From Patescibacteria group bacterium (GTDB taxonomy: Bacteria; Patescibacteriota; Microgenomatia; CAYGWK01), in the NCBI GenBank assembly GCA_049322615.1, contig JBMORX010000009.1, forward strand, positions 57,120 through 121,119: a stretch of DNA of 64,000 bases. Reading direction: 5' to 3'. Shown in pieces: positions 43,444-43,546 of this stretch. Made by a program: the position numbers and the translations under genes. The notes under the pieces were generated by a model. It was not told the DNA's origin. It ran no database searches and saw only the letters and a list, made by a program, of their open reading frames with translations. How positions within the stretch are numbered: position 1 is the stretch's first letter; the number at the start of each line of letters is the position of its first letter.

Positions 43444-43546
43444 CCGAGGTGGCGGAATCCCGAAAGAGCACTTCCTTGCTCCCGAGGTCTACGTCCTCGC
43501 GTCGCAAGAGCGTGTCTACGGGACAAGCTGGTAAACGCGCCCAGGT
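43444..43546 (+). pseudogene. tRNA-Leu-like 5' fragment (GCCGAGGTGGCGGAAT) interrupted in the D-loop by a hairpin-rich insert
   Basis: first 16 nt match a type II tRNA-Leu 5' end; then hairpins GAGCA..TGCTC and GAGG..CCTC. Confidence 0.5.

What the first reader, a model, noticed from the sequence alone, without database searches (positions are those of the whole stretch)
43444..43546. tRNA 5'-end duplicates with hairpin-rich inserts precede intact tRNAs (Leu-CAG here, Arg-TCT at 45233-45333) without any nuclease gene
At 43444 the first 16 nt of a tRNA-Leu are followed by a ~70-nt insert of small hairpins (GAGCA..TGCTC, GAGG..CCTC) and then the intact tRNA-Leu(CAG). At 45233 the first 25 nt of tRNA-Arg(TCT) are duplicated, followed by the hairpins TTAATCCGCAAGGCGGATTAA and GCGAGC..GCTCGC and then the intact gene. 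These look like non-autonomous (MITE-like) relatives of the nuclease-carrying tRNA elements. The hairpin stem TAATCCG/CGGATTA recurs at 37162 with a different loop. The related hairpins CCCGTTTGACGGG and CGCGTCAAACGCG sit at 43630-43655 and 37206. ACCCGCTAAGGCGGGT sits at 44972. After tRNA-Phe and after tRNA-Pro the same ~25-nt sequence recurs (ACCCTTCG(G)CT(T/A)CGC(C)TCAGGG at 43902 and 44925). The GNRA-like loops (TAAG/CAAG) hint at shared recognition sites.
Basis: seen in the sequence. Interest (0 to 1): 0.65.

Follow-up and report, generated by a model that had tools for sequence, protein, structure and literature searches.

The report
Replaced tRNA genes with leftover stubs
The short tRNA "5' duplicates" are leftovers of older tRNA genes that were overwritten by a different copy of the same tRNA, and the hairpins next to them are small mobile palindromic DNA elements that are widespread in Patescibacteria (tiny, uncultured bacteria), which reveals an undescribed way in which selfish DNA renews essential genes.

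Summary

- **Organism and scale.** The window is a Patescibacteria (Microgenomates-like) genome. In the 10-tRNA array, five genes carry relics of an older copy: Leu-CAG, Gly-GCC, Leu-TAA, Gly-TCC and Arg-TCT. Val-GAC and Arg-TCG elsewhere in the window do too.
- **What the relics are.** Orthologous arrays in four related genomes show that the relics match the resident alleles. The intact genes next to them are other alleles.
- **The Leu "insert".** It is a copy of a ~70-nt palindromic element, which I call M47. It lies inside the relic's D loop at position 16/17. The relic then resumes for 10 nt and abuts the new gene.
- **M47 itself.** It has at least 120 copies in metagenomes, strong covariation and no Rfam match. 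About 20% of copies lie in stubs of tRNA or protein genes that are followed by an intact copy.
- **Nested tRNAs.** Two Gly tRNAs are nested whole inside older Gly tRNAs, flanked by inverted repeats. One pair of repeats matches the outer stem of an M47-like element.
- **Nuclease units.** HNH before Leu-TAA and GIY-YIG before Val-GAC have the same stub architecture. Allele patterns suggest a nuclease travelling with an immune tRNA.

Best reading: cleave-and-replace turnover of tRNA genes, plus MITE-like palindromes. The replacement mechanism is inferred, not shown.

The parts
43401..43429 (+). Promoter-like site (TTGATT-17-TATAAT with TG) in front of the tRNA array
   Evidence: TTGTTATAAT is conserved at the same place in L007, L010 and L011 (TTGCTATAAT in L009).
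43443..43458 (+). Unit A, stub part 1: positions 1-16 of the displaced resident tRNA-Leu(CAG) allele
   Evidence: 16/16 identical to the 5' end of L007 Leu-CAG at the syntenic site. Only 13/16 identical to the adjacent gene.
43459..43528 (+). Unit A: M47 palindromic element. The hairpin spans 43459-43523 and the tail CAAGC spans 43524-43528. It is inserted in the D loop of the stub at position 16/17.
   Evidence: Covariance-model match of 77.5 bits over 43456-43525. Fold. Family covariation. At least 120 metagenome copies.
43529..43538 (+). Unit A, stub part 2: the old Leu allele resumes (TGGTAAACGC). With the GC shared with the new gene, it matches L007 positions 17-28 at 11/12.
   Evidence: Alignment A2.
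43539..43623 (+). Intact tRNA-Leu(CAG), the incoming allele (same type as in L010 and L009)
43623..43653 (+). Two small hairpins after Leu-CAG: CGCGTCAAACGCG and CCCGTTTGACGGG
   Evidence: A similar hairpin pair also occurs next to a GIY-YIG gene in L046.
44058..44095 (+). Unit B: 5' part of the displaced Gly-GCC (44058-44080) plus the left inverted repeat (44084-44093)
   Evidence: 22/23 identical to the uninterrupted Gly-GCC of L011 and L009. Repeat pair I10 is 10/10 complementary. 13/13 identical to the M47-like element at 21611-21623.
44096..44170 (+). Unit B: intact inner tRNA-Gly(GCC), nested inside the older gene
   Evidence: The same nesting occurs in L007 and L010.
44171..44218 (+). 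Unit B: right inverted repeat (44176-44185) plus the 3' part of the displaced Gly-GCC (44186-44218)
   Evidence: 34/34 identical to L011 Gly-GCC.
44220..44243 (+). Unit C: 24-nt stub of the resident tRNA-Leu(TAA) allele
   Evidence: 20/20 identical to Leu-TAA of L007 and L009.
44291..44767 (+). Unit C: HNH endonuclease gene. Its stop codon overlaps the start of Leu-TAA.
   Evidence: Pfam HNH, E = 4e-7. More than 6000 homologue clusters. Homologues lie directly before tRNA-Leu(TAA) in 4 of 4 other genomic contexts.
44761..44851 (+). Unit C: intact tRNA-Leu(TAA), the nuclease-linked allele with anticodon stem AACAC/GTGTT
44994..45030 (+). Unit D: 5' half of the displaced Gly-TCC, running through the anticodon
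   Evidence: 37/38 identical to L011 Gly-TCC.
45031..45079 (+). Unit D: hairpin 45031-45064, related to a hairpin in the L010 leader, plus the left inverted repeat 45062-45077
   Evidence: The L010 hairpin is a weak M47-family match of 15 bits.
45080..45153 (+). Unit D: intact inner tRNA-Gly(TCC)
45154..45210 (+). Unit D: right inverted repeat 45157-45172 plus the 3' half of the displaced Gly-TCC, whose T loop has decayed
   Evidence: (37/40 identical to L011).
45234..45254 (+). Unit E: stub of tRNA-Arg(TCT), 21/21 exact. It may extend in degenerate form to about 45268.
45255..45333 (+). Unit E: hairpin-rich insert. Inverted-repeat arms lie at 45265-45283 and 45287-45305. TTAATCCGCAAGGCGGATTAA lies at 45275-45295. 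GCGAGC..GCTCGC lies at 45296-45326.
   Evidence: Folding z = -2.6.. No relatives were found in the 140 fetched loci.
45334..45408 (+). Intact tRNA-Arg(TCT)
21610..21787 (-). Second M47 copy (21718-21787, minus strand) next to an inverted M47-like element (21610-21715, plus strand). The latter carries two extra hairpins in its apical loop.
   Evidence: 84.3 and 29.1 bits. Folding z = -4.9 and -5.1. The same pair lies upstream of hrcA in L045.
20336..20961 (-). Val-GAC unit, read on the minus strand: a 5' Val fragment, a GIY-YIG gene (20581-20826), intact Val-GAC (20508-20582) and a 3' Val fragment. Each fragment carries a ~110-nt element with 20-nt terminal inverted repeats in its D loop, in opposite orientations.
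33472..33501 (+). 27-nt stub of a tRNA 5' end plus 3 nt, directly before intact tRNA-Arg(TCG). A GIY-YIG gene follows at 33606-33878.

Best explanation
The 5' "duplicates" are stubs of resident tRNA genes that were overwritten by another allele of the same tRNA.

**Proposed mechanism (inferred).**
1. A break forms in the resident gene, in or just after the D arm or in the anticodon arm.
2. The break is repaired from a template that carries a whole tRNA gene.
3. The first roughly 16-30 nt of the old gene stay behind. In the nested cases both halves stay.

**What drives it (inferred from allele patterns).**
- In the autonomous form, the template carries a homing endonuclease (HNH or GIY-YIG) together with an allele that the enzyme does not cut. 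I call this "cleave and rescue".
- The nuclease-free units, including the two in the finding, would be the same replacement with one of three differences: the nuclease was lost, it acted in trans, or plain recombination of imported DNA did the job using the conserved tRNA halves as homology arms.

**The hairpins are a second layer.**
- They are small GC-rich palindromic mobile elements in a 39% G+C genome.
- M47, in the Leu unit, sits inside the dead stub's D loop.
- Related inverted repeats flank the nested Gly tRNAs.

**Shown:** stubs match resident alleles; empty sites exist in relatives; M47 is a conserved, structured, multi-copy element; HNH is linked to a distinct Leu-TAA allele.

**Inferred:** the break, the nuclease's target and immunity, and how M47 moves.
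For: **The array is orthologous in relatives.** The same ten-tRNA array was recovered in related genomes through homologues of the flanking substrate-binding protein.

**Stubs match resident alleles.**
- Stub A is 16/16, then 11/12 after M47, identical to the L007 allele at the same distance class from the same promoter.
- Stub C is 20/20 identical to the L007 and L009 allele.
- The outer halves of units B and D are 92-100% identical to the uninterrupted genes of L011 and L009.

**Empty sites exist.** L011 and L009 have no HNH gene, no Arg stub and no nesting.

**The new genes are whole foreign alleles, not chimeras**.

**Stubs recur elsewhere.** A 24-nt stub lies before Leu-CAG in the distant genome L006, with no hairpin and no nuclease.

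**The HNH family is tied to Leu-TAA.**
- The family has more than 6000 clusters at about 70% identity across Patescibacteria lineages.
- In 4 of 4 other genomic contexts it lies directly before tRNA-Leu(TAA), with upstream Leu-like stubs of 7-23 nt in the 3 distinct genomes inspected (clear in L132, weaker in L135 and L138).
- Linked alleles have anticodon stem ACAC/GTGT. Unlinked alleles have GGAC/GTCC.

**GIY-YIG relatives** abut tRNAs or duplicated tRNA ends in L117 and L036.

**M47 is a structured multi-copy element.**
- At least 120 metagenome contigs carry it.
- Covariation score is 0.267 against 0.091 in shuffles (0 of 500 reach it) and at most 0.09 when partners are slid.
- The covariance model scores 77-84 bits on the two window copies.

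**Stubs come from functional alleles.** About 20 of 108 M47 copies lie in a gene stub followed by an intact copy. In 13 protein-gene cases, stub and gene head differ by 22:4:63 across codon positions, with 55 synonymous and 12 non-synonymous codon differences. This fits functional diverged alleles rather than decayed target duplications.
Against: - No nuclease gene lies in units A, B, D or E, and no cleavage was tested.
- The inner Gly-TCC has the same anticodon arm as the outer gene, so immunity cannot lie there.
- In unit A and at 33472 the junction sits exactly at tRNA position +1 of the new gene. A simple repair model does not predict this.
- In two tRNA cases and, by inspection, three glycosyltransferase cases, the stub continues for roughly 6-10 nt beyond M47. 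This hints at a mechanistic link between M47 and the duplication that I cannot explain.
- Outer halves that are 100% conserved could also mean that they are functional.
- No transposase or recombinase recurs near M47.
- The Arg-TCT stub is identical in all alleles, so its origin cannot be assigned.
Confidence: 0.6

Rival explanations
1. The hairpin inserts are non-autonomous derivatives of the nuclease-carrying tRNA elements, and they create a 5' duplication of the target tRNA when they insert.
For: - The architecture of stub, insert and intact tRNA is the same as in the HNH unit.
- The Arg-TCT repeat is exact, 21/21.
- M47 is palindromic and multi-copy.
Against: - The Leu stub is another allele, not a copy of the adjacent gene.
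- M47 lies inside the stub, not between stub and gene.
- There is no sequence similarity between the hairpin inserts and the HNH or GIY-YIG cassette flanks.
- About 80% of M47 copies have no stub.
- Stubs occur without any insert, in L006 and at 33472.
- Codon-position pattern argues against decayed target duplications.
Confidence: 0.15
2. The structures are scars of site-specific integration. A tyrosine or serine recombinase inserted small elements whose attachment site carried the 5' part of the tRNA, as genomic islands do at tRNA genes.
For: - Break points lie in the D arm or anticodon loop. These are classic integrase sublocations (from my own knowledge).
- Direct repeats flank the insert in unit E.
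- An integrase gene lies at the edge of L011.
Against: - The reconstituted tRNAs are not chimeras of a foreign 5' part and a resident 3' part. They are foreign throughout.
- The inserts are 0-100 nt long and carry no recombinase.
- No recombinase recurs near the 108 M47 copies.
- Stub and gene abut directly in unit A.
Confidence: 0.08
3. The arrangement is functional at the RNA level. The stubs, hairpins and outer tRNA halves could be processing scaffolds, leaders, or two-piece tRNA-like molecules. M47 could be a structured RNA.
For: - M47 shows strong covariation with G.U pairs on one strand only.
- The outer halves of unit B are 96-100% conserved against distant relatives.
- One compensatory pair occurs in the long stem of unit B across three genomes.
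- Everything lies downstream of one promoter.
Against: - The units are absent from orthologous arrays in L011 and L009, whose tRNAs are intact.
- M47 occurs in both orientations relative to neighbouring genes.
- The outer T loop of unit D has decayed, and the outer T stem of unit B is interrupted again in L007 and L010.
- There is no match to any Rfam family.
- Stub A's acceptor strand mismatches the 3' end of the adjacent tRNA.
Confidence: 0.1
4. The structures result from local tandem duplication of tRNA genes followed by decay, or from an assembly artefact in a repetitive array.
For: tRNA arrays are repetitive, and the Arg repeat is exact.
Against: - A second assembler reproduces the array exactly over 4835 bp.
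- Related genomes from other samples carry the same nested Gly-GCC.
- The stubs are different alleles from the adjacent genes.
Confidence: 0.03

Closest known systems
Free-standing homing endonucleases in tRNA gene clusters, such as phage T4 SegB (GIY-YIG; PMC2330249)
   Same: A GIY-YIG or HNH gene sits among tRNA genes. The nuclease gene and flanking tRNA sequence are presumed to be inherited preferentially after the nuclease-free allele is cut.
   Different: Here the host is a cellular genome. The nuclease gene is fused to a whole replacement tRNA and leaves a 5' stub of the old gene. Many units have no nuclease. Cleavage was not tested.
Homing-endonuclease ORFs in fungal mitochondrial genes that carry a duplicate of the displaced gene end (from my own knowledge; partial duplications with GIY-YIG and LAGLIDADG ORFs are noted in, for example, PMC5626475)
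   Same: An insertion into an essential gene is made harmless because the element brings a replacement for the displaced part. The old part remains as a pseudogene fragment.
   Different: Those cases involve organelle protein genes and usually their 3' ends. Here the targets are bacterial tRNA genes and some protein-gene heads. Whole-gene replacement and nesting occur here.
Group I introns in Patescibacteria tRNA genes (PMC13011429)
   Same: Same phylum, same kind of target (tRNA anticodon loop), and some carry HNH genes.
   Different: No group I intron signature was found. The inserts are 70-140 nt or contain a whole tRNA. Function is restored by a second gene copy, not by splicing.
Small palindromic mobile repeats: REP/BIME, Correia elements, Rickettsia palindromic elements and yeast mitochondrial GC clusters (from my own knowledge)
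   Same: Short, GC-rich relative to the genome, imperfect hairpins, many copies, no coding capacity. They insert in or next to genes and nest within one another.
   Different: M47 has an invariant ~35-nt core shared across many metagenomic lineages. No partner transposase was identified. It is strikingly associated with gene stubs, and the outer stem of an M47-like element flanks a whole tRNA gene.
Genomic islands integrated at tRNA genes by integrases
   Same: tRNA genes are the targets, and partial tRNA repeats mark the event.
   Different: Islands duplicate the 3' part and rebuild a chimeric gene. Here the 5' part or both halves remain, and the new gene is foreign throughout. No integrase is present.

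Membership tests
Free-standing homing endonuclease cassette | Encodes a nuclease of a homing family | tested here: not met
   Units A and E have no ORF with a nuclease domain. The feature is met only for the neighbouring units: HNH at 44291-44767 and GIY-YIG at 20581-20826 and 33606-33878.
Free-standing homing endonuclease cassette | Presence/absence polymorphism at the same site in related genomes (empty sites) | tested here: met
   L011 and L009 lack the HNH gene, the Arg stub and the nesting at orthologous positions.
Free-standing homing endonuclease cassette | The linked target allele differs from the nuclease-free alleles (immunity) | tested here: inconclusive
   HNH-linked Leu-TAA alleles in the window and 3 other distinct genomes share anticodon stem ACAC/GTGT. 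The 4 unlinked alleles have GGAC/GTCC or GGGAC/GTCCC. Whether this is the cleavage site is unknown.
Free-standing homing endonuclease cassette | Site-specific cleavage of the empty allele | not testable with these tools
   This needs purified protein and substrate DNA.
MITE-like or REP-like palindromic element (M47) | Short, non-coding, with terminal inverted repeats or a hairpin | tested here: met
   About 70 nt, one long hairpin, 25 pairs, 84% of cells paired, covariation 0.267 against 0.091 in shuffles.
MITE-like or REP-like palindromic element (M47) | Many dispersed copies in unrelated contexts | tested here: met
They give 108 distinct contexts next to ychF, hrcA, lexA, tRNA genes and others. 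The window has 2 copies plus 1 diverged copy.
MITE-like or REP-like palindromic element (M47) | Target-site duplication of fixed length | tested here: inconclusive
   By inspection, a subset of copies is flanked by (C)TTGAC on both sides of an M47-plus-second-hairpin pair. The stub cases show none. This was not quantified.
MITE-like or REP-like palindromic element (M47) | A cognate autonomous element or transposase | tested here: not met
   No recurrent transposase or recombinase family lies within 3.5 kb of the 108 copies. There are 0 matches in viral contigs.
Group I intron in a tRNA gene | Match to the group I intron model and continuity of the exons | tested here: not met
   No Intron_gpI hit at gathering threshold or at E <= 5. 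Stub A's acceptor strand mismatches the 3' end of the adjacent tRNA.
Integrase-mediated integration at tRNA (att scars) | The rebuilt tRNA is a chimera of element-borne and resident parts, and a recombinase is nearby | tested here: not met
   The new Leu-CAG and Leu-TAA differ from the resident alleles along their whole length. No recombinase lies in the array.

The most novel reading that the evidence does not exclude
Patescibacteria may harbour a class of selfish "replace-and-rescue" elements that need no nuclease of their own.
- A small palindromic module (the M47 family and its relatives), with or without a complete tRNA or gene head as cargo, would enter a conserved essential gene.
- It would spread between species by using the conserved halves of that gene as portable homology arms.
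- Each event would leave a fresh stub.

The recurrent geometry, with the stub running roughly 6-10 nt past M47 and the new gene starting at once, would then reflect a dedicated, still unknown recombination mechanism.
Probability: 0.25. Interest if true: 0.85.

Novelty: new variant of a known kind. Interest (0 to 1): 0.68.

Why it matters
- **A route for selfish DNA into essential genes.** If this is right, essential and highly conserved genes in these minimal genomes are not off-limits to selfish DNA. Affected genes include tRNAs and the heads of ychF, mreB-like and glycosyltransferase genes. Elements can enter them by bringing a working replacement, which drives frequent allele turnover across lineages.
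- **Practical consequences.** It would explain why tRNA alleles differ sharply between otherwise close Patescibacteria genomes. It also warns annotators that tRNA fragments and nested tRNAs there are real.
- **Testable material.** It offers a natural analogue of engineered cleave-and-rescue gene drives. It also supplies an abundant HNH family with a predicted target, the anticodon arm of tRNA-Leu(UAA).
- **A candidate new family.** M47 is a well-supported, unannotated structured element and could be catalogued as a family.

Tried and rejected
- **Assembly artefact.** Rejected: a second assembler gives an identical contig, and related genomes show the same kinds of structure.
- **Group I or other known RNA families.** Rejected: no Rfam hits in the array, at 21.5-21.9 kb or at 37.0-37.4 kb.
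- **Intron reading of unit A** (stub joined to the 3' part of the adjacent tRNA). Rejected: G4.G69 would mismatch, and the adjacent gene is complete by itself.
- **Palindromes always nest into the loops of host hairpins.** The flanks of 100 M47 copies pair no better than permuted flanks (p = 0.38). I keep this only as an anecdote for D loops, anticodon loops and apical loops.
- **M47 as an RNA element tied to transcript orientation.** It occurs next to gene starts in both orientations.
- **A transposase or recombinase near M47.** None found.
- **A phage origin for M47.** No match in viral contigs.
- **Relatives of the Arg-unit insert.** None in the 140 fetched loci.
- **TIGR arrays** (seen in the literature search). 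M47 is not tandemly arrayed and its variable parts are base-paired.
- **Literature.** Searches for a prior description of the stubs or of M47 found nothing.
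Full report
**1. What is in the sequence**

ARAGORN and Rfam agree on ten intact tRNA genes at 43539-45498 on the plus strand: Leu-CAG, Leu-GAG, Val-TAC, Phe, Gly-GCC, Leu-TAA, Pro, Gly-TCC, Arg-TCT and His. 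Five of them carry pieces of a second tRNA of the same kind. I label these units A to E.

- **Unit A.** GCCGAGGTGGCGGAAT lies at 43443-43458, one base earlier than reported. An insert follows, then Leu-CAG.
- **Unit B.** A complete Gly-GCC (44096-44170) sits between the two halves of another Gly tRNA (44058-44095 and 44171-44218).
- **Unit C.** A 24-nt Leu stub (44220-44243) is followed by an HNH gene (44291-44767; Pfam E = 4e-7). The HNH stop codon overlaps the start of Leu-TAA.
- **Unit D.** A complete Gly-TCC (45080-45153) sits inside another Gly-TCC that is split after its anticodon (44994-45030 and about 45168-45210).
- **Unit E.** A 21/21 copy of the Arg-TCT 5' end lies at 45234-45254, followed by 79 nt of hairpins and then the gene. 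The window holds 2 matches against 0 expected.

The same theme occurs elsewhere in the window.
- At 20336-20961 (minus strand), Val fragments flank a GIY-YIG gene and an intact Val-GAC. Each fragment carries a ~110-nt element with 20-nt inverted ends in its D loop, in opposite orientations.
- At 33472-33501, a 27-nt stub abuts Arg-TCG, and a GIY-YIG gene follows.

The loops are not GNRA.

**2. Not an artefact**

A Logan contig assembled from run SRR32167786 is 100% identical to window 42797-47631. I could not tell whether that run is the one behind the window. The assembler differs, however, and related genomes from other samples show the same kinds of structure (see section 3).

**3. Orthologous arrays show what the fragments are**

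The flanking substrate-binding protein identifies the organism as a Patescibacteria MAG. Its homologues led to four related arrays with the same gene order. Protein identity to the window is 78% for L010, 75% for L007, 69% for L009 and 65% for L011.

- **Unit A.** The 16-mer is identical to the start of L007's Leu-CAG, which sits right after the same TTGTTATAAT promoter. After the insert the old allele resumes: TGGTAAACGC plus the GC shared with the new gene matches L007 positions 17-28 at 11/12. The insert therefore lies in the D loop (position 16/17) of a roughly 28-nt stub, and the stub abuts the new gene directly. The new gene is the allele seen in L010 and L009. It differs from the L007 allele along its whole length.
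- **Unit C.** The stub is 20/20 identical to the Leu-TAA of L007 and L009.
- **Units B and D.** The outer halves match the uninterrupted Gly-GCC and Gly-TCC of L011 and L009 at 92-100%.
- **Empty sites.** L011 and L009 have no HNH gene, no Arg stub and no nesting.
- **Spread of nesting.** The nested Gly-GCC is shared with L007 and L010, where the outer T stem carries one more small insertion. L009 has a nested His, and L010 has a Pro 5' half followed by a second Pro.
- **A distant case.** L006 has a 24-nt stub of the same Leu allele 15 nt before a different Leu-CAG, with no hairpin and no nuclease.

The fragments are therefore relics of resident genes, and the intact genes are replacements. 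Clearly delimited stubs end mostly at positions 23-30, at the end of the D arm or the start of the anticodon stem; a few shorter ones (7-16 nt) are less certain. Nested insertions lie in the anticodon arm.

**4. The Leu insert is a copy of a widespread palindromic element (M47)**

- **Second copy in the window.** The core of the insert has an 83% match at 21728-21774 on the minus strand, with compensatory changes. Both copies fold into the same long imperfect hairpin.
- **Abundance.** No viral contig matched.
- **Structure.** In a 90-sequence alignment, 84% of cells pair. The covariation score is 0.267, against 0.091 in shuffles (0 of 500 reach it) and at most 0.09 when partners are slid. Several pairs take three or four Watson-Crick types, and the G.U pairs lie on one strand only. 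The central 20 positions are invariant by construction of the search. Neighbouring positions that were not in the pattern are also at least 90% conserved.
- **No known family.** Nothing in Rfam matches.
- **Model search.** A covariance model built from the alignment scores 84 and 77 bits on the two window copies. It also finds a diverged, inverted M47-like element at 21610-21715 (29 bits, E = 3e-5) that carries two extra hairpins in its apical loop.
- **Link to unit B.** The outer stem of that M47-like element is the same inverted repeat that flanks the inner Gly-GCC of unit B, at 13/13 and 10/10 nt.
- **Link to unit D.** The hairpin of unit D resembles a hairpin in the L010 leader, and that L010 hairpin is itself a weak, core-less match to the model. 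The inverted repeat around the inner Gly-TCC recurs at 37325-37360 with a 7-nt loop instead of a tRNA.
- **Context.** M47 copies lie near gene starts in both orientations. No transposase or recombinase recurs nearby. Their flanks do not pair more than chance.

**5. M47 and gene stubs**

In about 20 of 108 distinct contexts, the ~40 nt before M47 repeat just after it as the start of an intact gene. The genes include tRNA-Arg in L081, with M47 again at D-loop position 16/17. They also include ychF, a glycosyltransferase and an mreB-like gene. A tRNA-Cys 3' end shows the reverse arrangement.

In 13 protein-gene cases, stub and gene head differ by 22:4:63 across codon positions, with 55 synonymous and 12 non-synonymous codon differences. 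That is the pattern of two functional, diverged alleles. It is not the pattern of a target duplication with one copy decaying. It agrees with the tRNA result that stubs are recently disabled resident alleles.

**6. The nuclease units**

- The HNH protein has more than 6000 homologue clusters, at about 70% identity across many Patescibacteria lineages.
- In four of four other genomic contexts it sits immediately before tRNA-Leu(TAA). Leu-like stubs of 7-23 nt lie upstream in the three distinct genomes inspected, clearly in L132 and more weakly in L135 and L138.
- HNH-linked Leu-TAA alleles share an anticodon stem ACAC/GTGT. Unlinked alleles have GGAC/GTCC. This is what one expects if the enzyme cuts the unlinked allele in the anticodon arm and travels with an immune allele.
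- GIY-YIG relatives in L117 and L036 also abut tRNAs or duplicated tRNA ends.

**7. Most likely mechanism**

Shown:
- Resident alleles are displaced by whole foreign alleles.
- Empty sites exist in relatives.
- A nuclease is linked to a distinct allele.
- M47 is a conserved, structured, multi-copy element.

Inferred:
- A break in the D arm or anticodon arm of the resident gene is repaired from a template that carries a complete tRNA. Stubs or outer halves remain.
- Homing endonucleases drive this where they are present.
- Nuclease-free units arise by loss of the nuclease, by action in trans, or by recombination of imported DNA that uses the conserved tRNA halves as homology arms.
- The high conservation of stubs and outer halves is then explained by their youth. 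Each event freezes a functional resident sequence, and old relics are deleted.
- The palindromes are a separate mobile layer that survives in dead stubs and sometimes flanks the incoming tRNA.

Open points:
- Why does the new gene start exactly at position +1 in unit A and at 33472?
- Why does the stub run roughly 6-10 nt past M47 in five cases?
- How does M47 move?
- Where does the Arg-unit insert come from?

**8. Comparison with what is known**

The closest described systems are listed here.
- T4 SegB, a GIY-YIG homing enzyme in a tRNA cluster (PMC2330249).
- Homing ORFs in fungal mitochondria that carry duplicated gene ends (partly from my own knowledge).
- Group I introns in Patescibacteria tRNAs (PMC13011429).
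- REP-like and MITE-like palindromes.
- Integrase scars at tRNA genes.

Group I intron and integrase membership fail on tested features. Homing-cassette membership holds for units with a nuclease gene (C, Val-GAC), not for A or E. MITE-like membership holds for M47 on size, structure and copy number, but not on a partner transposase. Searches of the paper library found no description of the stubs, the nested tRNAs or M47. That library is incomplete.

**9. Verdict**

I rate it as a new variant of known kinds (homing-type gene replacement plus palindromic mobile repeats), with interest of about 0.68. A more novel reading remains open: nuclease-free replace-and-rescue elements with a dedicated mechanism.

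Noticed in passing
window 37135-37260 and 37325-37360: An intergenic cluster of nested GC-rich hairpins has a folding z-score of -7.8 and no Rfam match. It shares stems with the tRNA-array inserts (TAATCCG..CGGATTA and CCCGTTTGACGGG). It also holds an "empty" version of the inverted repeat that flanks the inner Gly-TCC.
   Followed up: partly
window 21560-21610; L045 about 6170-6330 in the M47-oriented sequence: The M47 pair sits just upstream of a TTGAC(A) promoter box and a CIRCE-like inverted repeat (TTAGCAGTC..TACTGCTAA in L045, in front of hrcA). By inspection, many M47 copies are flanked by (C)TTGAC on both sides of an M47-plus-second-hairpin pair. This could be a target duplication or a promoter stub.
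   Followed up: partly
L007, L009, L010 versus window and L011: The whole ten-tRNA array is inverted relative to the neighbouring SecG and substrate-binding-protein genes in three relatives. This points to an inversion of the array during the divergence of these lineages.
   Followed up: no
L011 12451-12527 and 12756-12830; L009 12120-12194; window outer halves 44186-44218 and 45168-45210: The resident tRNA-Gly alleles have T loops reading G-T-G-C instead of G-T-T-C, whereas the incoming Gly tRNAs are canonical. From memory, GUGC is the hallmark of the non-proteinogenic tRNA-Gly used for cell-wall synthesis in staphylococci. I did not test this.
   Followed up: no
L009 12698-12880: A nested tRNA-His is flanked by an inverted repeat (cggaacgtaaaaaaattt / aaattaaatgtttccg). 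ARAGORN calls neither the outer nor the inner copy, so the functional His gene of that genome may lie elsewhere.
   Followed up: no
L098 (whole 1205-nt contig): Three successive copies of the head of one small ORF are separated by M47 and by a second, different palindromic element. This looks like serial rounds of the same stub-forming event.
   Followed up: partly
window 44026-44053; L010 about 3208; L009 about 12607: The motif TTAGGTTT(C/T)GTCCCAT, part of a small hairpin, recurs shortly before tRNA genes in several genomes. Its function is unknown.
   Followed up: no
window 57040-57150 and 42640-42860: There are further intergenic repeat hairpins: TCCAGGACTATCCTGGA twice at about 57.05 kb, and CCACCTCGGGG(T)GG(G/A)ACAG twice at about 42.65 and 42.81 kb. 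The genome seems rich in several unrelated palindromic families.
   Followed up: no
window 41796-42554: A DUF3800-family gene lies about 1 kb upstream of the tRNA array. No link to the array was found.
   Followed up: no
L007 versus L010: Of the six array tRNAs present in both contigs, Val, Phe and the nested Gly-GCC are identical and Leu-GAG nearly so, yet the Leu-CAG and Leu-TAA alleles are completely different. This is direct evidence for rapid allele swapping at single tRNA genes.
   Followed up: partly
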